Shown piece after piece: positions 774-27,935 of a DNA stretch of 34,924 bases. The DNA comes from a virus (lineage: Duplodnaviria; Heunggongvirae; Uroviricota; Caudoviricetes), in IMG/VR virus record IMGVR_UViG_2896589216_000002. One strand, given 5' to 3'. The position numbers and the translations under genes were made by a program. Positions within the stretch are counted from its first letter, which is position 1. The number at the start of each line of letters is the position of its first letter. The notes under the pieces are model-generated. The model saw only the letters and a list, made by a program, of their open reading frames with translations. It ran no database searches and was not told the DNA's origin.

Positions 774-2312
774 ATGAGCAGCTCACTTCCTGACGATATC
801 AATGCACTGAAACGTCTCCTTGCCGAACAGGAGGCGCTGAACCGTGCCCTGCTGGAAAAGCTGAACGAGCGTGAACGCGAAATAGACCATCTGCAGGCAC
901 AGCTGGATAAGCTGCGCCGGATGAACTTCGGCAGCCGCTCCGAAAAAGTCTCCCGTCGTATCGCACAGATGGAAGCTGACCTGAAGGCACTTCAGAAAGA
1001 AAGTGATACCCTTACCGGTCGGGTTGACGACCCGGCCGTGCAGCGCCCGCTGCGTCAAACCCGCACCCGCAAACCGTTCCCCGAATCACTCCCCCGCGAT
1101 GAAAAACGGCTGCTGCCGGCAGCGTCATGCTGCCCGGAATGTGGAGGCTCACTGAGCTATCCGGGTGAGGATGCCGCCGAACAGCTGGAGTTGATGCGCA
1201 GCGTCTTCCGGGTTATCCGGACTGTACGTGAAAAGCATGCCTGTACTCAGTGCGATGCCATCGTGCAGGCCCCCGCGCCTTCACGGCCCATCGAGCGGGG
1301 TATCGCAGGACCGGGGCTGCTGGCCCGCGTGCTGATCTCAAAGTATGCAGAGCACACCCCGCTGTACCGCCAGTCTGAAATGTACGGCCGCCAGGGCGTG
1401 GAGCTGAGTCGTTCACTGCTGTCGGGCTGGGTGGATGCATGCTGCCGGCTACTGTCACCGCTGGAAGAAGCGCTTCAGGACTATGTGCTGACTGACGGTA
1501 AGCTCCATGCTGATGACACGCCTGTCCCGGTGCTGTTGCCAGGCAATAAGAAAACGAAGACCGGGCGGTTATGGACCTACGTTCGTGACGACCGTAACGC
1601 CGGGTCAACGCTGGCGCCGGCGGTGTGGTTCGCTTACAGCCCGGACAGAAAAGGCATCCATCCGCAGACCCATCTTGCGGGGTTCAGTGGTGTACTGCAG
1701 GCGGATGCATACGCCGGGTTCAACGAGCTGTACCGGGATGGCCGGATAACGGAAGCCGCCTGTTGGGCTCACGCCCGCCGTAAAATCCACGATGTGCACG
1801 TTCGCACCCCGTCAGCCCTGACGGAGGAAGCGCTGAAACGGATCGGCGAACTGTACGCCATCGAGGCAGAGATAAGGGGAATGACGGCGGAGCAGCGCCT
1901 TGCCGAACGTCAGTTGAAAACGAAACCGCTGCTGAAATCCCTGGAAAGCTGGCTGCGTGAAAAGATGAAAACCCTGTCGCGACACTCAGAACTGGCGAAA
2001 GCGTTCGCATACGCCCTGAACCAGTGGCCGGCGCTGACGTACTATGCAGATGATGGCTGGGCTGAGGCGGACAATAACATCGCTGAAAATGCGTTGCGGA
2101 TGGTCAGTCTGGGCCGCAAAAACTACCTGTTCTTCGGTTCGGATCATGGAGGAGAGCGGGGAGCGCTGCTGTACAGCCTGATCGGGACGTGCAAACTGAA
2201 CGGAGTGGAGCCAGAAAGCTACCTCCGCTATGTCCTTGACGTCATAGCCGACTGGCCGATAAACCGGGTCGGCGAACTGCTCCCCTGGCGCGTAGCACTG
2301 CCGACTGAATAA
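774..2312 (+). CDS. tnpC: IS66-family transposase TnpC, 512 aa
   Basis: Long ORF with Cys-rich zinc-finger-like region (CCPECG...CTQC); identical to copy 3. Confidence 0.9.
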
Positions 2313-8787: not shown

Positions 8788-10025
8788 TTATGCCTCCTGG
8801 AGTTTCACACTGATATCCGACACATCCAGAACCGGAATCTCATCTATCCCGAAAGTGACAGCCGTTGTCCATGACGAACCGTCACGGCTCACAGTAAGGC
8901 CCAGAATATCAATATGTTCCGGATCGGTTTTGTAAATGCCGGCATAGTAGCGCCCGGCAGAGACAACAGAGGCAACCCTTGCCCGCAGACCACCATCTGT
9001 ACCATTAAATGCGTCCAGCACGGATTGCTGTACCTGTCGGGTAATATCTGAAGGCAGGTAGTCACTTTTTTTCAGCGTCACACTGACATGCAGACTGACG
9101 GGTTTGAGTGTCTGCCAGCTGATTACGTATTCAGGATACGGCGGATCGTACTCCTTATCTGCAACAGTGAACGTTGTGTTGCCATTCATATCAATACCCG
9201 GCGGAGCCTTACGCCAGATGGCCGCCGCGATATCTGCCGGGCTGCCGCCGTACACGCCAACATAAAGCGAACCGGGTGTTAATGGATACTGACTGACTCC
9301 GGCTTTTTGTTCTGTTTTTTTCGGATTATGGGGGACGTAAACATCCACCACGTTTTCTACCGTGGAGAGTATTTCACCCCGGATGGCTTCCAGAATATTC
9401 CGGGCATTACGGGCAACTGAATTACGTCGGCGGTTTTCAAAGTCCGCACGGGTTTCCTCATCGCTGCCCGGCACACCGGCACGGGCGTTAGTGACACCTG
9501 ACCAGCCAGGTATTGCCTTATAAATTTTATTCAGCGTCCCCACAGGACAGCCGACGGGGCCGGTGGACAAATTCAGAAATACCGCATCAACCTGCCCTGA
9601 TGCGCCGATAGTGACGTCTGACTGACATACTTATAACCGGCCTCATCCTGCCCCATACTGCCCGCCGGGATCAGCGTGCCAACCAGCCCGGTACAGGTCG
9701 CTGTTACTGTCGTACCTGTGGCCCCACGGCGCTCCAGGAAATAAATCCTGCCTATTGCATCCTGAAAGCGACCACTGGAAAAGTCAGGGTTGATCTGGTT
9801 AACGATATACAGCAACTGATCGTTTTTATCCGCAATAATGGCGCTTTCGCTGGATGCAAGTTGTCCCTGCGGACTGCTCAGACTGGTACTCATGGCCCCG
9901 CCCAGCGCCGCCGAAAAATCAGCAAGCCTGCCGCTCAGAATATCCGCTTCATCCGGCACATTCAGCCCGCTATCCGAAATCTGTACAGCGGGCACTGCGG
10001 TAGAAAAAGATTTATTTTCACTCAT
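8788..10025 (-). pseudogene. baseplate J-like protein split by an apparent 1-nt frameshift near 9615-9635
   Basis: 150-aa N-terminal ORF (9573-10025) and 260-aa ORF (8788-9570); the second frame reads ...SDVTIGASGQVDAVFLN... straight after the first stops. Confidence 0.6.
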
Positions 10026-12217: not shown

Positions 12218-12927
12218 CAGGTGATCCCCCTGTTCGTGGCGCTTCGTCTGTCAGCGTCTGACGGTTGTGTCTCCGACGCCGTAACTGGCTGCGTTTTAAC
12301 CGATGCGGCCCCTTTTGCTTTATCGTTGTCCGTGGGAGACGACTTATCCGTACTTCCCACTGACACCTCTCCTGTATTCATTACGGTCTGAAATACCGCA
12401 GTAACCGTCAGTAAGGTCGGACCATTATTACTTCGCATTCGGTAGTCATATTTCACAAGGTCGCAGGATGTCCATGTCTTGTCCGGCGTCTCAATATCGT
12501 AGAGTCCTGCCGTGGTACGCATCCTTTCAAGCGTTTCCAGCACATTCGTCCGCGAGGTGGTGGAAAAATTTGTCAGGTTCGGGACGGATCCGGAAAAGGC
12601 CGTCCACCCCTCTACAGTGAAAGTCACATGCAGTTCCGGCGATCTCTGGATTTTATTAAAGGTGGTATAAGCCCCCTGCTCCACGGGGACGGTGGAAACA
12701 GAAGCCTCCGCGCCCACCTCAACGACAACAAAAGAATCCGGGGAGAAAGGTTTGCCACCCTTCTGATGGGCACCTGCCGGATCATTCCGTGCGTAATAAA
12801 TACCGAATGACGGTGCCAGTACACTATTAATGAGTCCCAGGACACAGCCGCCACGAACTGCACTCAGTACGTTACTTTCACTGAGCGAAAAGTTATTCAG
12901 GGAAATATTATCGAAAGAAAAACTCAT
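12217..12927 (-). CDS. phage tail protein, 236 aa, directly downstream of tape measure
   Basis: Operon position; overlapping stop/start. Confidence 0.4.
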
Positions 12928-14944
12928 CCTGTTACCCCGCTGGAATAAACCGACACAAGCGCCGAATTCGTGATACGCCGACGTGCGTCATCGGTAATAC
13001 CCTTCACATTGTCCGACGTTGTGGTGACATTCAGTGTCCCGATATGCGTGGTTTCCGTTACGGTGGACTGCGATACAGGCGCAGGATGGAGCGACCGTAT
13101 GGCCATTGCCGCACCCGGATAAGGCAGGTTCGCCAGCACCCGCGGAATATAGTTGCGGGTCTCCTCCGGAGCAGCAGCCAGTCCCTTACGCTGAACATTT
13201 CCCTCTCCACAGTTATATGCCGCCAGAGCCTTAGCCAGATCGCCATGAAAAAAACGTATCAGGCCACCAAGTTTTCTCGCGGCGGCATCAGCGGCTTTTT
13301 CGGGATCAAAGGCATCGTTCCCCCTCAGACCAAATTCACTGGCCGTCTTCGGCATGAACTGAAACAGTCCCATCGCACCAGCAGGTGAGACGGCAAACTG
13401 ATTACCACGGGATTCGGTGATCGCAACGCTGCGCAGCAGTCCGGGCGGCAGGTTATATTTTTCCTCCAGTTGAGACAGTTTCGGTTGCAGCCAGCCTAAC
13501 AGGGCTTCCCCGGTCTTCGTCGGTCGCTGGCGGTTTTGCATGGCATTACCGAGTTTTTCCTGCGTCGCACGCATACCCTGTAGCCAGGATTCACCGAAGG
13601 CTGCTTCCCTCCCGGTTGCCTGAGAAGCCTGAGTATCCAGCATGCCCTGCTGCCATACTGTGGGTGATTGTGCCCGGGTGATGTTGCCAGGCTTTTCTCC
13701 GGCATCCAGTTTTGTCTGATACGTCTCCATCTCTTTCTTATTGAAAAAGAAAGTCCCGTCTGAAGCCCAGAAAAAACCATGTGAATCCAGCCAGTCCTTA
13801 TTTTCCCTGCCAACAATGGATGTCAGTAATCCGTCAACAACCGGGTAAAGCGCCGTTATCGCAAAAAGAAGGCCTCCGGGGCCACTGAGGGCTTTTGTCA
13901 GCCCCCGCACCCATGACGCCACTTTCAGCCCGATCAGCGTAATAATGACATTCTGCCAGCCCCCCAGTTCTCCGGCAGCCTTATTCGCTAGGGAGGCCAC
14001 TGACTCAACGTCATTCAGAAATGTGGTGATAAACCTGTTCACTTCCTCCGGATGTTGCTGCATCCAGTCACCGAGTGTCTCCAGCCAGTGGCTGAGCTTC
14101 AGCGCGTACGGCATCAACGCGGTGCTAATCGTCATCCCGATGCCGGACCAGGTCTGATCGAGCTCAACAAGCTCTTTTCGTAGCTTACGGGCCAGCGCTG
14201 TACGCCCCGGCGTAACCTGCGAACGGGAAGTAAATTCGTCCACATCTTTCAGCGCATGACCGGAGCCAAGAAACTGCTGTCCGGCATAACTGAAGCCCAG
14301 CGCGTTGCCGTAGGCAGTTTGTTCGGACTTTGTCAGTCGCGGAAAAATAACCGCCAGCTTGCGCATGATGGCTTCAGTGCTGTCAGTATTTAAATCAACA
14401 CTAATGCCCGCCCTGGCTGCAACCTGAAACAAATCCTGTAACACAGGATCAAAGGACCTTCCGGCTCTGAAGGCCGCTTTTGCATTTGCAAGCCGGGAAA
14501 ATGCCCCAGACATTTCCCCTTCATCAACATTATTTGCCCGCGCAGCCCGTAACCATCCGTCCAGATTTCTGGCCTTCATGCCAAAAGCATCGGATTCCAC
14601 GGACAGACGGTTCAGATCACGGGCAAAACCTGTTACCAGGTTCTTCAGCCCCCCAGCGTCAGACTGACACCCGCAAGAGCCAGAATCTCGCTACGGATTC
14701 CTGAAAAAAAACGGGACGCCCGTTTCCCGGCATCTTCCATTCGACGGGCCGTTTTATCAGCATCTTTTCCGGTTTTTTCCAGTGATTCACTGGTTTTCTT
14801 CTGTCCCTGACTGAATGTGTCAGCGACACCTTCCATCACCGTCGTGAGCCGGTTAAGGGCAGCATGTACTGCCTGTTCCCCGGCAGTAAAGTCCCTGTCA
14901 TCAATCCCGAGGGACAGAACAAGCTCATCAAGTACCTGCGCCAT
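12924..14944 (-). CDS. tail tape measure protein with C-terminal lytic transglycosylase (SLT) domain; N-terminal 99 aa and main 558 aa separated by a frameshift in a C6 tract
   Basis: SLT motif (ITESRGNQFAVSPAGAMGLFQFMP...AYNCGEGNV); adding one G to the run at 14649-14654 fuses the frames as ...SLTLGGLKNLVTGFARDLNRLSVESDAF... Confidence 0.7.
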
Positions 14945-15180
14945 TTCTGTTCTCCTGTATCACCTGTTCGTTATGGGCATCCACATGAATTATTTCCAGC
15001 AGATCCCATAAGTCCTGCACACCAAGGACAGAATCCAGTTCAGCTTTTGAAGCCTTACCGGAGGAGATAACGGTCGCAATGGTACGGGGAACATTAACGT
15101 AATCCACCACCCCGAACGGTCTGTCGGGGTCGAGATAACGCGGGGGATATCTAGCTGACGACGGTAGCGAAAAAATCCAC
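14928..15180 (-). CDS. candidate frameshift extension of tail chaperone (+1 frame relative to 15151-15555)
   Basis: Protein-like +1 frame (...PRYLDPDRPFGVVDYVNVPRTIATVISSGKASKAELDSVLGVQDLWDLLEIIHVD...) opens at the T6C run and ends overlapping the tape measure start. Confidence 0.4.
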
Positions 15181-15555
15181 ATGCAGCTTAAAGACCTCCG
15201 CACGCAGATTAAGACGGGTAATGATTTCTTCAATATCCTCTTCAACAAGCGGTCTCCGGATGCTGCGTTTTTTCGGATCGGGAACAAACTGCACACAGTC
15301 CATCATTTCATCCATCAACGGACGCGCCTCATCAGGCGGAATTTTCGATAATGCTTTCAGCCCTTCAAGGGCAAGCGCAGCCATCCCCAGACTACGAACA
15401 TCATCCGGTAACTCCACGCCACCACGCCCCATTGCCATAATGGCACGCATCGCCCACCATTCCGCCTGTGAGGCAGACATTTCGGTAAGATGAAATACCT
15501 TGCCCTTATCCCGTCCCTGACCTTCAATAGTGATAAATTTCTCTTTACGGGCCAT
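15151..15555 (-). CDS. tail assembly chaperone, 134 aa
   Basis: Directly upstream of tape measure; ends at slippery run GAT TTT TTC. Confidence 0.5.
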   Translation of the reverse strand: MARKEKFITIEGQGRDKGKVFHLTEMSASQAEWWAMRAIMAMGRGGVELPDDVRSLGMAALALEGLKALSKIPPDEARPLMDEMMDCVQFVPDPKKRSIRRPLVEEDIEEIITRLNLRAEVFKLHVDFFATVVS

Positions 15556-15893
15556 CAGTTAAAAACCTCCGGAGTAATGGTTTCCCACTCAATAACCGCC
15601 TGCCCTGGCTGCAACGTACGAGCTGCATCAGGCAGCGCTTTCCATTGTTTGAGTACGCCATTCACGCAGGTATATTTACGGCCAATCGCCGGAAGCAGGA
15701 CGACAGCGTTACAACGGAATACAGCCCGACTGGCCCGGATGTGGTTGACCAGGTATCAAAAATATCCCGGCTGGGGGAATCCGGCATGATATGAAACGTC
15801 TGGATAATGTTGCTGTACACAAATCCCGCGGACAGTTTGGTAATGCTGCCAACTTACTGATTTAGTGTATGATGGTGATTTTAAGGTGCTTGC

Positions 15894-16169
15894 GTGGCTT
15901 CCATTTCCATCAGATGTCCTTCCTGCTCCGCTACTGAAGGCGTGGTGCGTAACGGCAAAAGCACTGCCGGACATCAGCGCTATCTCTGCTCTCATTGCCG
16001 TAAAACATGGCAACTACAGTTCACTTACACCGCCTCTCAGCCCGGTACGCACCAGAAAATCATTGATATGGCCATGAATGGCGTCGGATGTCGCGCCAGT
16101 GCACGCATTATGGGCGTTGACCTCAACACGGTTTTCCGTCACTTAAAAAACTCAGGCCGCAGTCGGTAA
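15894..16169 (+). CDS. insA: IS1 InsA
   Basis: 91-aa InsA. Confidence 0.9.
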
Positions 16170-16195
16170 CCTCGCGCATACAACCGGGCAGTGAT

Positions 16196-16591
16196 GTGAT
16201 TGTCTGCGCTGAAATGGACGAACAGTGGGGCTACGTCGGTGCTAAATCACGTCAGCGCTGGCTGTTTTACGCGTATGACAGGATACGGAGGACGGTTGTG
16301 GCGCACGTCTTCGGTGAACGCACTCTGGCCACACTGGAGCGTCTTCTGAGCCTGCTGTCGGCCTTTGAGGTCGTGGTATGGATGACGGATGGCTGGCCGC
16401 TGTATGAATCACGCCTGAAGGGAAAGCTGCACGTTATCAGCAAGCGTTACACTCAGCGCATTGAGCGACATAATCTGAATCTGAGACAACATCTGGCAAG
16501 GCTGGGACGGAAGTCACTGTCGTTCTCAAAATCGGTGGAGCTGCATGACAAGGTCATCGGGCATTATCTGAACATAAAACACTATCAGTAA
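16196..16591 (+). CDS. insB: IS1 InsB
   Basis: InsB frame. Confidence 0.9.
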
Positions 16592-17955
16592 GTTGGAGTC
16601 ATTACCGACAGTTTACCGTCAATACCGCGGGCAGTTTCCGCCAGTACCAGTGGATCGGTGCCATAAACGTTATCTGTTGCAAATCCCTGAAGTCGTACGC
16701 CGGAGGGATACAGATTATTCACTGTCAGCGTGATAATGGCATCCGCCGCAGTGATGGTGTTGTTGTTACCCGACATTTACTGGACCTCCGTGGATGCAAT
16801 AACAAGTTTCTGGATACTACCGCCGTCACAGTACCAGAGCGTACAGGACGGACTGCTACGGGTTGCCCGCAAAGAGGGAAGCATATCGCCGATATACAGG
16901 TAATAGCCGGTGGCAAACAACGTTGAAGAAACATCTGCCTCCACAACATTGTTAATCTGTTTCTTCTGCGCCTCCGTCAGTGTCACCCCTTCACGGATCC
17001 CTCCCAGCGTTTGTACTGCTGGATAACGTCACTCATTGACGCTGCAACCAGCGCCCGCCCTTCATTGTTGTAGGGGACCGTCTGGTTTGACTTGAATAAT
17101 GCGATCACCGCCCCTGCAAACTGGCATTCAGCCAGATTTGCCCGCAGAAACTGTCCAGCCATTTAAAATCACCGGTAATAGTGCCATCCGCCCAGTAATC
17201 TTCCACCACACTGTTTTCCGCATATTTTCCGTAGAAATTGTAACCTGCGGCGATCAGCGCATCATAATCGCTGCCACTGGTAACATCAGCGGCCAGCCCC
17301 TCATACTCGCGGAACTTGAATGATACACGCCCCTCTGGTCGGATAAAATCAAGGCACGCTGCATACCCCAGTACCGCTGCAGCCCGGTTACCATCAGTCG
17401 CGAAAACAGGTACAACAGAGCTGTAGTTATTGACAGCAATTATCTGGTAAGCGATGTGTTCAGTACTGCCTTTTACTCTGGCGTTGCCGCTGGTTGTCCA
17501 TGCCACATAAAAGTAACGCTTGCCCTGCCCGTTTGCCCATGCAGAAAACGCCAGGTGTTGCTCGTCAGTGACCTCAGATACCGTGGAAAAACCCGCCCAT
17601 TGCTGGGAAGCGGCCTTAATGGCTGCCATTGTGTCAGGGACATCAGATACAGGCGCGCCCCGGGATATCACCGCACCGGTGTTACTGGTCATCTTCAGGA
17701 GTTCTGCTGCCGATCCACTGCCGAACGTTATCGTGGTACTCCCGGGTTTCGCCCCGGCGACAGTAATGACAAAAGCATTCTGTGTGGTATCGAATACCAC
17801 TGTAGCCACTGCTGCGGTCAGCGCTGTCTGTAGTGCCGTTGCAGCAGCGGCGAAGCTGGCGACACCGTTAAAATTCACTTCAATGCTGACGCTTTTCCCG
17901 TTAATACTCAGCATCAGCGTAAGCGTGCAGCAAGAACCGTATTGACGGGGATGTG

Positions 17956-19493
17956 TTATTCAGTCGGCAGTGCTACGCGCCAGGGGAGCAGTTCGCCGAC
18001 CCGGTTTATCGGCCAGTCGGCTATGACGTCAAGTACATAGCGGAGGTAGCTTTCTGGCTCCACTCCGTTCAGTTTGCACGTCCCGATCAGGCTGTACAGC
18101 AGCGCTCCCCGCTCTCCTCCATGATCCGAACCGAAGAACAGGTAGTTTTTGCGGCCCAGACTGACCATCCGCAACGCATTTTCAGCGATGTTATTGTCCG
18201 CCTCAGCCCAGCCATCATCTGCATAGTACGTCAGCGCCGGCCACTGGTTCAGGGCGTATGCGAACGCTTTCGCCAGTTCTGAGTGTCGCGACAGGGTTTT
18301 CATCTTTTCACGCAGCCAGCTTTCCAGGGATTTCATCAGCGGTTTCGTTTTCAACTGACGTTCGGCAAGGCGCTGCTCCGCCGTCATTCCCCTTATCTCT
18401 GCCTCGATGGCGTACAGTTCGCCGATCCGTTTCAGCGCTTCCTCCGTCAGGGCTGACGGGGTGCGAACGTGCACATCGTGGATTTTACGGCGGGCGTGAG
18501 CCCAACAGGCGGCTTCCGTTATCCGGCCATCCCGGTACAGCTCGTTGAACCCGGCGTATGCATCCGCCTGCAGTACACCACTGAACCACGCAAGATGGGT
18601 CTGCGGATGGATGCCTTTTCTGTCCGGGCTGTAAGCGAACCACACCGCCGGCGCCAGCGTTGACCCGGCGTTACGGTCGTCACGAACGTAGGTCCATAAC
18701 CGCCCGGTCTTCGTTTTCTTATTGCCTGGCAACAGCACCGGGACAGGCGTGTCATCGCATGGAGCTTACCGTCAGTCAGCACATAGTCCTGAAGCGCTTC
18801 TTCCAGCGGTGACAGTAGCCGGCAGCATGCATCCACCCAGCCCGACAGCAGTGAACGACTCAGCTCCACGCCCTGGCGGCCGTACATTTCAGACTGGCGG
18901 TACAGCGGGGTGTGCTCTGCATACTTTGAGATCAGCACGCGGGCCAGCAGCCCCGGTCCTGCGATACCCCGCTCGATGGGCCGTGAAGGCGCGGGGGCCT
19001 GCACGATGGCATTGCACTGAGTACAGGCATGCTTTTCACGTACAGTCCGGATAACCCGGAAGACGCTGCGCATCAACTCCAGCTGTTCGGCGGCATCCTC
19101 ACCCGGATAGCTCAGTGAGCCTCCACATTCCGGGCAGCATGACGCTGCCGGCAGCAGCCGTTTTTCATCGCGGGGGAGTGATTCGGGGAACGGTTTGCGG
19201 GTGCGGGTTTGACGCAGCGGGCGCTGCACGGCCGGGTCGTCAACCCGACCGGTAAGGGTATCACTTTCTTTCTGAAGTGCCTTCAGGTCAGCTTCCATCT
19301 GTGCGATACGACGGGAGACTTTTTCGGAGCGGCTGCCGAAGTTCATCCGGCGCAGCTTATCCAGCTGTGCCTGCAGATGGTCTATTTCGCGTTCACGCTC
19401 GTTCAGCTTTTCCAGCAGGGCACGGTTCAGCGCCTCCTGTTCGGCAAGGAGACGTTTCAGTGCATTGATATCGTCAGGAAGTGAGCTGCTCAT
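17956..19493 (-). pseudogene. tnpC: IS66 tnpC with 1-nt deletion (copy 2)
   Basis: gtcatcgcatgg near 18755-18760 versus gtcatcagcatgg in copy 3; ORF splits into 324 + 260 aa. Confidence 0.85.
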
Positions 19494-19541
19494 ACCGGGT
19501 ATATTACCAGGCTCATTCAGCGTCGACCAGGATAAAGAGGC

Positions 19542-19889
19542 TTACAACATAGTCAGGGACGTAAGCAGTCTTTTAGGCTGCCGCCAGTCGATACCTTCAA
19601 GGAGCATCGCCAGCTGTGCCGGTGTGAGGAACACTTTGCCATCCCGGGCTGACGGCCAGGCGAAGCGGCCGCGCTCCAGCCGTTTGGTCAGCAGACACAG
19701 TCCATCGCCGGTAGACCAGAGGAGCTTTACCTGACTGCCATTACGCCCACGGAAGATAAAAACGTGACCTGACATCGGATCGTCTTTCAGCGTCGTCTGC
19801 ACCTTTGCCGCCAGGCCGTTGAAGCCATTTCTCATATCGGTGATACCGGCAACCAGCCAAATTTTGGTCCCGGAAGGTAACGGGATCAT
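19542..19889 (-). CDS. tnpB: IS66 TnpB (copy 2)
   Basis: Identical to copies 1 and 3. Confidence 0.85.
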   Translation of the reverse strand: MIPLPSGTKIWLVAGITDMRNGFNGLAAKVQTTLKDDPMSGHVFIFRGRNGSQVKLLWSTGDGLCLLTKRLERGRFAWPSARDGKVFLTPAQLAMLLEGIDWRQPKRLLTSLTML

Positions 19890-20287
19890 CGCTTCAGTTC
19901 CTGTATCAGCAGAGTCAGGAGCTTTTCGCTGACATTGCCATTAAAGCGGAGCGTCCCGTGCCGGAACGTTACCTCACAGCTGATACTGAGGGTTTCCGGA
20001 TCCTCTGCGAGCGATTCTGGCTGTTCGGCAGCTGCATCGAGAGTCACAGGAAGTAGCTGGGGGCTCTCTGAAGAAGGTAATAGCAGCTTTCCCTCGCGCC
20101 ATTGTTGTCGCCATTTGAACAACAGATTGGCGTTAATGCCATTTTCAAGAGCAAGTTTTGAGATGGATATCCCGGGTTCACAGGAGGCAGCAACGAGCTG
20201 CTGTTTAAATTCGGGAGGATAATTAGGGCAGCCTTTTCGCCTGCCGGGATTCACATTTTTCTGCATATCTGACACTTTGGTTCCCAC
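19886..20287 (-). CDS. tnpA: IS66 TnpA (copy 2)
   Basis: 133-aa full-length. Confidence 0.85.
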   Translation of the reverse strand: MGTKVSDMQKNVNPGRRKGCPNYPPEFKQQLVAASCEPGISISKLALENGINANLLFKWRQQWREGKLLLPSSESPQLLPVTLDAAAEQPESLAEDPETLSISCEVTFRHGTLRFNGNVSEKLLTLLIQELKR

Positions 20288-20687
20288 TACTTATTTGGTG
20301 GACACCACTTTGTCTAATTCGTCAGATTCTGACCAGACGGTTCAGGCTGTACGCTTACGCATCAGCGTGCCGGAAAGTTTTTGTAGCTGTTCAACAGTCG
20401 CGCCCTTAAACGAACCGCTACGTAACCAGGCCGCCGATGGGGCAGGACTGAAACGGGAAAACAACAATTGCCCCGGCGTCCTGGTGGCATTTTTGAAGCC
20501 CTGGAAATAAAGCTGAGCGCGTGCGTACTCATCGGATAATGCACCAAAATACGCGGCCACATCATCCGGAGAGGAAAACGGAACCACAGTGCCGACCGGA
20601 AGTAACGGATTACTGGTCAACAGCAGGCCGTTAAGATCGACGGCATTACCCGCCACAGCCAGCACACCGGGATTTATCTGTACATCT

Positions 20688-21233
20688 TTACTGAGTGGAA
20701 TTGGCATTATCAGCCTCCGTTGTCCGGGTGATCACGTTGTCAAAAAACATCAGGGAAGTTGTGACCACAGGGTTAATCTGCATCTGAATATCAAGCGTCC
20801 AGCGCGGTTCATACTGTTGCTGACCGTTGGGGAATGTGGTGTTAAAGGGCTCTGAGCAATACAGCGGGGAAATCAGCCCACCGCCCTGCCGGAAAAGCCG
20901 TACGGAAAATTCAGACCGGAAAAGCGTTGCCAGCACCTGAGCGTTATCTGCCGCGTGAGGGCCGTAGAAATCAAGCTGGCAACGCCATTTTGTGGTACGG
21001 GTGATATGCTGAGAGCCCTCACCAGCCTGCGCTGGCGCAGAATATGCCACTACCGCAGTGGATAATCCGGTAACATCAATGCCCGTCATGGTGATGAAAT
21101 TCCCCTGAGGCATCGGGACCTGGTTCTGCTGCGTTCGTTCAATCCCGGCATCAGAAAAAAGCCCCCGGTGATAATCACCGAGGGCCTGATAAAGAGCGCT
21201 TTCCGTAACGGAGAGGGTCACACCTGAAGGCAT
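20688..21233 (-). CDS. phage virion protein immediately upstream of sheath, 181 aa
   Basis: Tight operon; position of tail terminator/completion proteins. Confidence 0.4.
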   Translation of the reverse strand: MPSGVTLSVTESALYQALGDYHRGLFSDAGIERTQQNQVPMPQGNFITMTGIDVTGLSTAVVAYSAPAQAGEGSQHITRTTKWRCQLDFYGPHAADNAQVLATLFRSEFSVRLFRQGGGLISPLYCSEPFNTTFPNGQQQYEPRWTLDIQMQINPVVTTSLMFFDNVITRTTEADNANSTQ

Positions 21234-26396: not shown

Positions 26397-27935
26397 TTAT
26401 TCAGTCGGCAGTGCTACGCGCCAGGGGAGCAGTTCGCCGACCCGGTTTATCGGCCAGTCGGCTATGACGTCAAGTACATAGCGGAGGTAGCTTTCTGGCT
26501 CCACTCCGTTCAGTTTGCACGTCCCGATCAGGCTGTACAGCAGCGCTCCCCGCTCTCCTCCATGATCCGAACCGAAGAACAGGTAGTTTTTGCGGCCCAG
26601 ACTGACCATCCGCAACGCATTTTCAGCGATGTTATTGTCCGCCTCAGCCCAGCCATCATCTGCATAGTACGTCAGCGCCGGCCACTGGTTCAGGGCGTAT
26701 GCGAACGCTTTCGCCAGTTCTGAGTGTCGCGACAGGGTTTTCATCTTTTCACGCAGCCAGCTTTCCAGGGATTTCAGCAGCGGTTTCGTTTTCAACTGAC
26801 GTTCGGCAAGGCGCTGCTCCGCCGTCATTCCCCTTATCTCTGCCTCGATGGCGTACAGTTCGCCGATCCGTTTCAGCGCTTCCTCCGTCAGGGCTGACGG
26901 GGTGCGAACGTGCACATCGTGGATTTTACGGCGGGCGTGAGCCCAACAGGCGGCTTCCGTTATCCGGCCATCCCGGTACAGCTCGTTGAACCCGGCGTAT
27001 GCATCCGCCTGCAGTACACCACTGAACCCCGCAAGATGGGTCTGCGGATGGATGCCTTTTCTGTCCGGGCTGTAAGCGAACCACACCGCCGGCGCCAGCG
27101 TTGACCCGGCGTTACGGTCGTCACGAACGTAGGTCCATAACCGCCCGGTCTTCGTTTTCTTATTGCCTGGCAACAGCACCGGGACAGGCGTGTCATCAGC
27201 ATGGAGCTTACCGTCAGTCAGCACATAGTCCTGAAGCGCTTCTTCCAGCGGTGACAGTAGCCGGCAGCATGCATCCACCCAGCCCGACAGCAGTGAACGA
27301 CTCAGCTCCACGCCCTGGCGGCCGTACATTTCAGACTGGCGGTACAGCGGGGTGTGCTCTGCATACTTTGAGATCAGCACGCGGGCCAGCAGCCCCGGTC
27401 CTGCGATACCCCGCTCGATGGGCCGTGAAGGCGCGGGGGCCTGCACGATGGCATCGCACTGAGTACAGGCATGCTTTTCACGTACAGTCCGGATAACCCG
27501 GAAGACGCTGCGCATCAACTCCAGCTGTTCGGCGGCATCCTCACCCGGATAGCTCAGTGAGCCTCCACATTCCGGGCAGCATGACGCTGCCGGCAGCAGC
27601 CGTTTTTCATCGCGGGGGAGTGATTCGGGGAACGGTTTGCGGGTGCGGGTTTGACGCAGCGGGCGCTGCACGGCCGGGTCGTCAACCCGACCGGTAAGGG
27701 TATCACTTTCTTTCTGAAGTGCCTTCAGGTCAGCTTCCATCTGTGCGATACGACGGGAGACTTTTTCGGAGCGGCTGCCGAAGTTCATCCGGCGCAGCTT
27801 ATCCAGCTGTGCCTGCAGATGGTCTATTTCGCGTTCACGCTCGTTCAGCTTTTCCAGCAGGGCACGGTTCAGCGCCTCCTGTTCGGCAAGGAGACGTTTC
27901 AGTGCATTGATATCGTCAGGAAGTGAGCTGCTCAT
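26397..27935 (-). CDS. tnpC: IS66 transposase TnpC (copy 3, intact)
   Basis: 512 aa, identical to copy 1. Confidence 0.9.

What the first reader, a model, noticed from the sequence alone, without database searches (positions are those of the whole stretch)
14928..15555. Tail chaperone pair with a U UUU UUC slippery run at the stop of the upstream ORF
The 134-aa ORF ends ...DFFATVVS* over GAT TTT TTC at about 15165-15180. A protein-like ORF continues in the +1 frame for ~75 codons to the tape-measure start; the -1 frame is poorer. This is the expected position of G/GT-type chaperones, and a +1 direction would be the less common kind. A separate ATG-initiated small gene (ATGTGGATTTTTTCG) is an alternative.
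Basis: partly seen in the sequence, partly recalled or inferred. Interest (0 to 1): 0.5.

Follow-up and report, generated by a model that had tools for sequence, protein, structure and literature searches.

The report
Ordinary -1 tail-chaperone frameshift, broken here
This is the usual phage tail-assembly chaperone gene pair joined by a backward (-1) ribosomal slip on U UUU UUC; it looks like a rare +1 shift only because this copy, in a decayed prophage, lacks one C just after the stop codon.

Summary
The described sequence is there. A 134-aa ORF on the minus strand (15555..15151) ends ...HVDFFATVVS*. GAT TTT TTC lies at 15177..15169. In this window the +1 frame runs open to the tape-measure start.

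The ORF is a tail assembly chaperone (phrog_1932, E 3e-59). The downstream frame is a conserved small domain (phrog_3976, E 6e-32).

The "+1" reading is private to this sequence. All 18 near-identical E. coli-type genome copies compared have six C after the stop (TAGATATCCCCCCGCG). They include two assemblies with the same IS1 and IS66 insertions. The window has five C (15146..15142). With six C the conserved domain lies in the -1 frame.

Across 92 other loci from about ten genera:
- The domain is in the -1 frame in all 12 reference loci and 78 of 80 viral contigs.
- That frame is open from the slip site to the tape-measure gene.
- A canonical in-frame heptamer (T_TTT_TTC/A/T or G_GGT_TTT) sits at the same H-V-D-F-F motif in all but two loci, one with only a T_TTT tetramer and one with a truncated chaperone gene.

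The -1 frame shows purifying selection. The ATG alternative is not conserved.

This is an ordinary lambda G/GT- or P2 E/E+E'-type -1 frameshift. In this window it is inactivated by a homopolymer deletion or assembly error. Low interest.

The parts
15151..15555 (-). Tail assembly chaperone gene (G-like, also called TAC-N), 134 aa, intact in the window.
   Evidence: It matches phrog_1932 'tail assembly chaperone' at E 3.2e-59 over residues 1-131. Five of 12 diverse homologues hit Pfam Phage_TAC_15. It lies between the tail tube gene and the tape-measure gene.
15169..15175 (-). Slippery heptamer T_TTT_TTC, in frame as X_XXY_YYZ, 21 nt before the stop codon.
   Evidence: Searches give the sequence and position. 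The heptamer is TTTTTTC, or once TTTTTTT, in 79 of 80 IMG/VR loci. A canonical heptamer is present in 11 of 12 reference loci. The codons GAT TTT are invariant, while the Phe codon five positions upstream is TTC in 23 of 27 unique sequences.
15151..15153 (-). TAG stop codon of the chaperone frame. In intact copies it is embedded in the -1-frame codons CTA GAT (Leu-Asp of the conserved LDIPP motif).
15142..15146 (-). C5 run, which is C6 in all close relatives. This 1-nt deletion moves the conserved downstream domain from the -1 frame to the +1 frame.
   Evidence: Alignments are. C-run counts are: all 10 NCBI copies have 6 and the window has 5. All 8 full-length E. coli hits span 702 nt against the 701-nt query.
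14928..15141 (-). Coding sequence of the T-like domain, which is the C-terminal part of the frameshift product. It ends at the TGA at 14930..14928.
   Evidence: It matches phrog_3976 at E 6.1e-32. It is conserved in the -1 frame in all 12 reference loci and 78 of 80 viral contigs. Pairwise codon differences are 2086 synonymous to 1270 nonsynonymous in this frame, against 528/3028 and 161/3366 in the other two frames.
14645..14944 (-). N-terminal fragment (99 aa) of the tape-measure / lytic tail protein. It is cut off by a G7-to-G6 deletion at 14654..14649.
   Evidence: It matches phrog_2013 positions 1-76. The G-run has 6 bases in the window and 7 in all relatives.
12924..14600 (-). Remainder of the tape-measure / lytic tail protein, carrying an SLT transglycosylase domain. 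In intact relatives the two pieces form one 673-aa gene.
   Evidence: It matches phrog_2013 at E 2.5e-207 and Pfam SLT at E 1.7e-26. The intact 673-aa gene is seen.

Best explanation
The locus is the G/GT-type tail assembly chaperone pair of an E217/AP22-type contractile-tail prophage.

In intact copies most ribosomes translate the 134-aa chaperone and stop at TAG. A minority slip back one nucleotide on U_UUU_UUC, with the P- and A-site tRNA-Phe re-pairing on UUU UUU. They then read CGC UAC CGU ... through the 0-frame stop. The product is a 209-aa fusion: the chaperone body, then a basic linker (RYRRQLDIPP), then a roughly 60-aa T-like domain that ends at the tape-measure start.

By analogy with lambda gpG/gpGT, the common part would coat the tape-measure protein and the T-like domain would recruit tail tube subunits.

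In this window one C of the C6 run (codons CCC CCG, the Pro-Pro of the linker) is missing. The T-like domain now lies in the +1 frame, and a -1 slip yields a nonsense tail. The apparent '+1 chaperone frameshift' is therefore an artefact of a homopolymer deletion. The deletion is either real decay in a dead prophage or an assembly error.

Shown here: the deletion, the -1 frame relation in relatives, the conservation of the heptamer, and coding constraint on the -1 frame.
Inferred, not shown: that slippage actually happens, its efficiency, and the roles of the two products.
For: 1. Family and position. phrog_1932 'tail assembly chaperone' matches at E 3e-59. The downstream frame matches phrog_3976 at E 6e-32. 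The neighbours are sheath, tube, an SLT-bearing tape-measure gene and baseplate genes.

2. The deletion.
- The window reads TAGATAT-CCCCCGCG, against CCCCCC in E. coli CFSAN029787.
- All 8 full-length E. coli hits and all 10 NCBI copies of the identical chaperone have C6.
- L014 and L021 share the window's IS66-in-sheath and IS1-in-tube architecture at 99.9% identity. They differ from the window by four 1-nt gaps. All four are deletions in the window; three lie in G or C runs of 4-7 bases, and the fourth lies next to a G run that was not resolved.
- An exact-match scan for the C5 allele in 185,579 species-representative genomes found nothing.

3. With C6, the -1 frame from T_TTT_TTC reads FFRYRRQLDIPPRYLDPDRPFGVVDYVNVPRT...NGAGT, 82 codons up to the tape-measure ATG.

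4. Diverse phages carry an in-frame canonical heptamer at the homologous HxDF(F/L) motif and an open -1 frame of 75-88 codons. They are Pantoea PA-1, Burkholderia phiE131, Pseudomonas Orisa03, Aeromonas 56, Edwardsiella GF-2, Vibrio IKEMa6-1, three Acinetobacter phages and a fecal contig. The +1 frame closes after 2-44 codons in those with a heptamer, and after 51 in the Klebsiella phage.

5. In the 80 IMG/VR loci (26 unique junctions, 59-100% aa identity), 78 have the T-like domain in the -1 frame and 79 carry TTTTTTC or TTTTTTT.

6. In many relatives a -1-frame TGA lies directly 5' of the heptamer (GTT GAT TTT TTC). The -1 ORF therefore opens exactly at the slip site.

7. The linkers are stop-free in all 20 sampled sequences. 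The product of shuffle probabilities is about 1e-8, or about 5e-6 for the 11 most diverse.

8. Purifying selection acts on the -1 frame. Variable sites fall 35/22/61 at codon positions 1/2/3. Synonymous to nonsynonymous codon differences are 2086/1270, against 528/3028 and 161/3366 in the control frames. The linker motif LDIPP spans the 0-frame stop and is conserved, while the 0-frame tail (ATVVS, TAVAG, ENGAE and so on) is not.

9. U_UU.U_UU.C is among the heptamers that shift without a stimulator in E. coli and belongs to the efficient H_HH.U_UU.Y class (PMC4066793).

10. G-T-type frameshifting is widely conserved in long-tailed phages (PMC5009743).

11. No database protein spans both parts. 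All of the best 120 of 345 hits are about 134 aa. The two parts are therefore never fused in frame.
Against: - There is no direct evidence of slippage for this family: no proteomics and no reporter assay.
- No conserved downstream RNA structure was found. The consensus fold is -0.55 kcal/mol, and the single-sequence z-score is -0.38. Efficiency would therefore rest on the heptamer alone, as in lambda.
- Public annotations call the downstream part a separate small gene with its own GTG or ATG.
- One relative, a Klebsiella prophage, has only a U_UUU tetramer and not a heptamer.
- Whether the missing C is a true mutation or an assembly error cannot be decided from sequence alone.
- A chaperone-like fold could not be confirmed. 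The AlphaFold2 model had pLDDT 50.
Confidence: 0.86

Rival explanations
1. The T-like domain is made as an independent small protein of about 60 aa from its own start codon, as PGAP and most phage records annotate it. On this reading no frameshift is needed.
For: - Separate CDSs of 45-70 aa are annotated in E. coli (GTG start), PA-1, Aeromonas 56, Acjo_20, GF-2, AP22 and phiAC-1.
- The PA-1 subgroup has a conserved ATG (PP[VT]MG...).
- phrog_3976 is a family of stand-alone 67-aa entries.
Against: - No start codon is conserved across the family. The E. coli GTG GTG is CTT GTC, ATG ATC or CTG ATT in close relatives.
- The -1 frame is stop-free from the heptamer through a 25-33-codon linker in every relative.
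- That linker carries a conserved motif spanning the 0-frame stop.
- The slippery heptamer is invariant against the local codon preference.
- Independent initiation explains none of these observations. The two routes are not mutually exclusive.
Confidence: 0.08
2. The element uses a genuine +1 (or Mu-like -2) programmed frameshift on the T6 run to join the chaperone to the downstream frame.
For: - In the window as given, the +1/-2 frame is the one that reaches the conserved domain.
- A T6 run could in principle allow tRNA-Phe to re-pair in the +1 or -2 register.
- Phage Mu uses -2 at its tail chaperone genes (PMC5009743).
Against: - The +1 relation exists only in this one sequence. It is explained by a 1-nt homopolymer deletion that is absent from 18 near-identical copies, two of them with the same IS architecture.
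- All other relatives place the domain in the -1 frame.
- The +1 route would replace the conserved RYRRQLDIPP linker with SLPSSARYPP.
- No +1 stimulator is present: no rare or stop codon in the A site and no suitably spaced SD-like element.
- The surrounding prophage is dead. IS elements interrupt the sheath and tube genes and the tape-measure gene is split, so nothing would select for a rescue.
Confidence: 0.02
3. The fusion is made by transcriptional slippage. RNA polymerase adds an extra U on the T6 run, rather than the ribosome slipping.
For: - An extra U in the mRNA gives the same -1-frame fusion.
- Homopolymer runs are the substrate for such slippage (PMC5009743).
Against: - Six T is short for bacterial RNA polymerase slippage. 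By my own recollection, known cases use runs of about 9 or more.
- Relatives with G_GGT_TTT have only 4-5 T yet keep the X_XXY_YYZ phasing.
- The motif is always in the exact codon phase that tandem tRNA slippage requires. Transcriptional slippage does not need that phasing.
Confidence: 0.03
4. A separate small gene starts at the ATG in C ATG TGG ATT TTT TCG (15182..15180).
For: In the window, this ATG opens an 84-codon ORF that contains the conserved domain.
Against: - The ATG is a by-product of the codons CAT GTG. Relatives have CAC GTG, CAC GTT or CAT GTT.
- With the normal C6 run, this frame ends 19 codons after the chaperone stop and never reaches the conserved domain.
Confidence: 0.01

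Closest known systems
Phage lambda gpG / gpGT tail assembly chaperones (-1 frameshift at G_GGA_AAG)
   Same: - There are two overlapping ORFs directly upstream of the tape-measure gene.
- A slippery heptamer lies a few codons before the stop of the first ORF.
- The -1 extension is of similar size, about 80 codons.
- No strong stimulatory RNA structure is present.
- The general account is in PMC5009743.
   Different: - No detectable sequence similarity.
- The host phage has a contractile tail, whereas lambda is a siphovirus.
- The heptamer is U_UUU_UUC.
- The function of the two products is untested here.
Phage P2 gpE / gpE+E' (-1 frameshift on a T-run, contractile tail)
   Same: - A contractile-tail phage with the chaperone pair between the tube and tape-measure genes.
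- A T-rich heptamer. I recall TTTTTTG for P2 from Christie et al. 2002; this was not checked here.
- PMC5009743 notes that P2-type efficiency is 2-3 times that of lambda.
   Different: - A different protein family: phrog_1932 and phrog_3976, with no hit to P2-type models.
- The tail module is of the E217/AP22/Pam3 type with a DUF3383 sheath.
Phage Mu tail chaperone genes (-2 frameshift; Xu, Hendrix and Duda 2004, as cited in PMC5009743)
   Same: The genomic position is the same. The window, read at face value, has the same frame relation, since +1 is equivalent to -2.
   Different: All intact relatives of this locus use the -1 frame. The -2/+1 appearance comes from a 1-nt deletion. Nothing in the tail module is Mu-like.
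TAC-N / TAC-NC -1 frameshift proposed for Pakpunavirus and Andersonviridae myoviruses (PMC12846349)
   Same: - The downstream ORF is routinely annotated as a hypothetical protein.
[quoted passage not shown]
- The -1 frame is stop-free in every genome examined.
- The same comparative logic was used there as here.
   Different: The phage lineages and protein families differ. Here the motif is a full X_XXY_YYZ heptamer.

Membership tests
G/GT-type tail assembly chaperone pair with programmed -1 frameshift | The pair is located immediately upstream of the tape-measure gene and downstream of the major tail (tube) gene. | tested here: met
   The gene order is sheath, tube, chaperone, T-like ORF, SLT-bearing tape-measure gene, baseplate. 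This holds in the window and in intact relatives.
G/GT-type tail assembly chaperone pair with programmed -1 frameshift | [quoted passage not shown] | tested here: met
   T_TTT_TTC is at 15175..15169, 21 nt before the stop. It is conserved in 79 of 80 IMG/VR loci and 11 of 12 reference loci.
G/GT-type tail assembly chaperone pair with programmed -1 frameshift | The -1 frame is open from the slip site to about the tape-measure start and encodes a conserved domain. | tested here: not met
   Not met in the window itself. The -1 frame loses the conserved domain after ...QLDIP because of the C6-to-C5 deletion. It is met in every intact relative: 82 codons in E. coli CFSAN029787 and 75-88 codons in diverse phages. 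The window copy is therefore a broken member of the family.
G/GT-type tail assembly chaperone pair with programmed -1 frameshift | The upstream protein belongs to a recognised tail-assembly-chaperone family. | tested here: met
   phrog_1932 matches at E 3.2e-59. Pfam Phage_TAC_15 hits 5 of 12 homologues with best E 4.9e-9, but not the window protein itself. NCBIfam gave no hit. The fold was not confirmed, because the model had pLDDT 50.
G/GT-type tail assembly chaperone pair with programmed -1 frameshift | Two products are made at a fixed ratio. Both are needed for tail assembly and both are absent from virions. | not testable with these tools
   This needs proteomics or reporter assays and genetics in an intact relative.
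+1 or -2 (Mu-type) tail chaperone frameshift | The downstream conserved frame is +1/-2 relative to the chaperone frame, and this relation is conserved among relatives. | tested here: not met
   The +1 relation is seen only in the window. Eighteen near-identical genome copies, 78 of 80 IMG/VR loci and 12 of 12 reference loci have the -1 relation.
Mu-like prophage | Mu-type structural or transposition genes are present in the element. | tested here: inconclusive
   The tail and neck genes match E217 / Pam3 / DUF3383 families. The transposases in the window match IS-type families (IS66, IS1 and others). The head and replication modules were not examined in full.

The most novel reading that the evidence does not exclude
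The C5 allele is a real mutation and not an assembly error, and the T6 run allows enough +1 or -2 slippage to restore a functional chaperone-T fusion. That would be a natural example of a -1 site being converted into a +1/-2 site by a single indel. It could show how Mu-type -2 chaperone frameshifts arose.
Probability: 0.02. Interest if true: 0.5.

Novelty: new member of a known kind. Interest (0 to 1): 0.1.

Why it matters
The biological weight is small. This is one more family using the well-known tail chaperone frameshift. It occurs in prophages and phages of Escherichia, Salmonella, Serratia, Photorhabdus, Pantoea, Enterobacter, Acinetobacter, Aeromonas, Burkholderia, Pseudomonas, Edwardsiella and Vibrio.

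Two practical points follow:
1. In every annotated record I looked at, the T-like part is either a separate 'hypothetical protein' or not annotated at all. The family could be re-annotated as a -1 frameshift product: T_TTT_TTY/A at the HxDF(F/L) motif, giving a fusion of about 209 aa.
2. A single homopolymer indel downstream of a slip site can make a canonical -1 site look like a rare +1/-2 site. Unusual frameshift directions should be checked against relatives before they are believed.

Tried and rejected
- Searching viral contigs with the 12-sequence chaperone alignment failed, because no conserved stretch was long enough. I used the single protein instead.
- Pfam and NCBIfam gave no hit for the window chaperone, the T-like domain or the repaired fusion.
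- A profile search of the PDB gave only a chance hit at E 2.1.
- AlphaFold2 on a 22-sequence alignment gave pLDDT 50 and pTM 0.32. That is too poor for a fold search, so none was run.
- I looked for a downstream stimulatory RNA structure and found none. The consensus over 13 relatives was -0.55 kcal/mol with 3 pairs, and the single-sequence z-score was -0.38. By eye there is no suitably spaced SD-like element upstream either; the nearest, GGAGG, is about 25 nt away.
- An exact-match scan of species-representative genomes for the C5 allele found nothing.
- DNA-level search of the phage collection found only Pantoea PA-1. A protein-level search was needed to reach the 106 related phages.
- The search with the repaired 209-aa fusion found no in-frame or annotated fusions among the best hits.
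- I could not find the organism or assembly the window comes from.
Full report
**What is in the window**

All relevant genes are on the minus strand. An ATG-initiated 134-aa ORF runs 15555..15151 and ends CAT GTG GAT TTT TTC GCT ACC GTC GTC AGC TAG. GAT TTT TTC is at 15177..15169. The heptamer T_TTT_TTC is at 15175..15169, in the X_XXY_YYZ phase, 21 nt before the TAG at 15153..15151.

In this sequence the +1 (equivalently -2) frame is open to a TGA at 14930..14928. That TGA overlaps the ATG of the next gene at 14944..14942. The +1 frame reads ...PFGVVDYVNVPRTIATVISSGKASKAELDSVLGVQDLWDLLEIIHVDAHNEQVIQENRNGAGT*. The -1 frame is open for about 60 codons but is not protein-like after ...QLDIP.

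**Identity of the parts**

- The 134-aa protein matches phrog_1932 'tail assembly chaperone' at E 3.2e-59.
- The downstream frame matches phrog_3976, a family of 67-aa proteins of unknown function, at E 6.1e-32.
- The next gene is a tape-measure-type 'lytic tail protein' (phrog_2013) with an SLT transglycosylase domain.
- Upstream lie a tail tube gene (E217_Gp32-like) and a DUF3383 sheath gene. Downstream lie Dit-like, Pam3_gp18 plug, hub, spike and wedge genes.

This is the G/GT position of a contractile-tail module of the E217/AP22/Pam3 type. I saw nothing Mu-like in it.

The element is a wreck:
- IS1 sits in the tube gene.
- An IS66-family element sits in the sheath gene.
- Further IS copies lie elsewhere in the window.
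- The tape-measure gene is split into 99-aa and 558-aa pieces.

**The key result: a missing C**

I aligned the window with the intact prophage of E. coli CFSAN029787. It shows three 1-nt gaps in 3.8 kb, all of them homopolymer deletions in the window. One lies 4 nt after the chaperone stop: TAGATAT-CCCCCGCG in the window (C5, 15146..15142) against CCCCCC in the relative.

Every other close copy has C6:
- All 8 full-length hits in complete E. coli genomes span 702 nt against the 701-nt query.
- All 10 NCBI genome copies that encode the identical chaperone have C6, and also G7 in the tape-measure gene.
- Two of these, L014 and L021, carry the same IS66-in-sheath and IS1-in-tube insertions as the window and are 99.9% identical over 6.4 kb. 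They differ from the window by four 1-nt gaps. All four are deletions in the window. Three lie in G or C runs of 4-7 bases. The fourth lies next to a G run that was not resolved.

An exact-match scan for the C5 allele in species-representative genomes found nothing. The C5 state is thus private to this sequence. It is either very recent decay or an assembly error. Sequence alone cannot decide between the two.

**Consequence for the reading frame**

With C6 the conserved downstream domain is in the -1 frame. From T_TTT_TTC the -1 frame reads FF RYRRQLDIPP RYLDPDRPFGVVDYVNVPRT...NGAGT. That is 82 codons, ending at the tape-measure start. The +1 frame stops 19 codons after the chaperone stop. The predicted fusion is 209 aa.

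**Is -1 the family rule?**

A tblastn search of the phage collection found 106 phages with a homologous chaperone. I fetched representatives and analysed them without preselecting for any motif. Together with E. coli CFSAN029787 they form a set of 12 reference loci.

- Eleven of the 12 have a canonical in-frame heptamer at the homologous H-(V/I/L)-(D/G)-F-(F/L) motif. It is T_TTT_TTC, T_TTT_TTA or T_TTT_TTT, or G_GGT_TTT in Burkholderia phiE131 and Aeromonas 56.
- The twelfth, a Klebsiella prophage, has a U_UUU tetramer.
- In all 12 the -1 frame is open for 75-88 codons to the tape-measure region and encodes the same domain (NVPRTIATV..L.EL.TVY..D...LLEI).
- The +1 frame closes after 2-51 codons.

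Eighty further loci from IMG/VR gave 26 unique junctions at 59-100% aa identity:
- 78 have the domain in the -1 frame, and 79 have TTTTTTC or TTTTTTT.
- One exception (L023) carries C7 plus a second C-run insertion.
- The other (L083) has a truncated chaperone.

In many relatives a -1-frame TGA directly precedes the heptamer (GTT GAT TTT TTC). The -1 ORF therefore opens exactly at the slip site.

**Tests of constraint**

- *Codon choice.* At the slip site the codons are always GAT TTT TTN. Neighbouring synonymous sites vary freely: CAT 13 to CAC 17 at the His codon, and three Val codons at the next position. The Phe codon five positions upstream is TTC in 23 of 27 unique sequences.
- *Stop-free linker.* The linker between the heptamer and the conserved domain is 25-33 codons long and stop-free in all 20 sampled sequences. 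The product of the shuffle probabilities is about 1e-8. It is about 5e-6 for the 11 most diverse sequences, which are not fully independent.
- *Substitution pattern.* In 15 alignable relatives, variable sites in the non-overlapping part fall 35/22/61 on codon positions 1/2/3 of the -1 frame. Pairwise codon differences are 2086 synonymous to 1270 nonsynonymous. In the other two frames the counts are 528/3028 and 161/3366.
- *Overlap zone.* The -1-frame linker has a conserved basic motif, FF.(R/H)R..LDIPP, whose Leu-Asp codons CTA GAT contain the 0-frame TAG. The 0-frame tail (ATVVS, TAVAG, ENGAE and so on) is not conserved. This argues that ribosomes read through this stretch in the -1 frame. 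An independently initiated small gene would not require that.

**Mechanism**

U_UU.U_UU.C is one of the heptamers that shift measurably without a stimulator in E. coli. It belongs to the efficient H_HH.U_UU.Y class (PMC4066793).

I found no conserved downstream RNA structure and no suitably placed upstream SD-like element. This resembles the low-level lambda G-T shift. Such shifting is described as widely conserved among long-tailed phages, with Mu as a -2 exception (PMC5009743). The same comparative argument was recently made for the Pakpunavirus chaperone genes (PMC12846349).

No protein in the 5.8-billion-sequence collection spans both parts. All of the best 120 hits are about 134 aa. The two parts are thus never fused in frame.

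That slippage occurs, and what the two products do, is inferred by analogy and not shown here.

**Rivals**

- *Independent initiation of the T-like domain, as annotated by PGAP and others.* It cannot be excluded as an additional route. However, it lacks a conserved start codon, and it does not explain the heptamer, the phase, the stop-free linker or the conserved linker motif.
- *A genuine +1/-2 shift.* This is contradicted by every relative.
- *Transcriptional slippage.* This is unlikely on 4-6 T, and it would not need the strict codon phase seen here.
- *The ATG at 15182..15180.* This is a by-product of the codons CAT GTG, is not conserved, and in intact copies leads to a 19-codon dead end.

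**Verdict**

The chaperone-pair idea is right. The '+1, less common kind' idea is wrong. The locus is an ordinary -1 G/GT-type frameshift cassette of a family in which the frameshift is not annotated in any record I examined. In this window it is disabled by a one-base homopolymer deletion inside a thoroughly degraded prophage. Interest is low. The useful by-products are an annotation rule for this family and a caution about indels that mimic unusual frameshift directions.

Noticed in passing
window 12924-14944 (-); G-run at 14649-14654: The tape-measure / lytic tail protein gene is split into 99-aa and 558-aa ORFs by a G7-to-G6 deletion. It is an intact 673-aa gene in all close relatives, including the two with the same IS architecture.
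   Followed up: yes
window 15594-16776 (-), with IS1 at about 15894-16591 (+); CC at 15737-15738: The tail tube gene (E217_Gp32-like) is interrupted by IS1. It also carries a CCC-to-CC deletion that L014 and L021 share, so that one is a real lineage mutation and not an error private to the window.
   Followed up: partly
window 16983-20707; IS66-family element at about 17956-20287: The DUF3383 sheath gene is interrupted by an IS66-family element. That element's own transposase is split by a 1-nt deletion near 18757, compared with the two intact copies in the window (774-2312 and 26397-27935). The sheath fragment has two more 1-nt deletions, near 17114 and 17005.
   Followed up: partly
L023 (IMG/VR UViG_2537561977_000012), about 936-975: Another assembly of the same prophage has C7 at the same post-stop C-run, plus an extra C in a second run. 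This puts the T-like domain in frame 0. The run is indel- or error-prone in more than one data set.
   Followed up: partly
L003 (Burkholderia phage phiE131) 2114-2605: An HNH homing endonuclease gene sits between the T-like ORF and the tape-measure gene. It separates the chaperone cassette from its usual neighbour.
   Followed up: no
L006 (Klebsiella phage ST15-VIM1phi2.1), about 1950-1960: This relative lacks the heptamer (CAT ATC GCT TTT GTA) and keeps only a U_UUU tetramer, yet the -1 frame is still open through a homologous linker (RKLEIPL) and T-like domain. It may have a weaker or different slip site.
   Followed up: partly
window 15120-15168 (-) and the homologous stretch in relatives: In relatives the -1-frame linker after the slip site carries a conserved basic motif, FF.(R/H)R..LDIPP, that spans the 0-frame stop codon. 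Its role is unknown. The window's missing C falls in the Pro-Pro codons of this motif.
   Followed up: partly
E. coli RMDEC332, NZ_CM177021.1 2270935-2271349 (hit H10): The match to the chaperone gene ends at about window 15186, a few bases 5' of the slip site. This suggests a rearrangement or insertion right there in that strain.
   Followed up: no
window 8788-10025 (-): The baseplate wedge (J/gp47-like, phrog_6) coding sequence appears as two adjacent ORFs, 9573-10025 and 8788-9570. This is another probable disruption in the same prophage.
   Followed up: no
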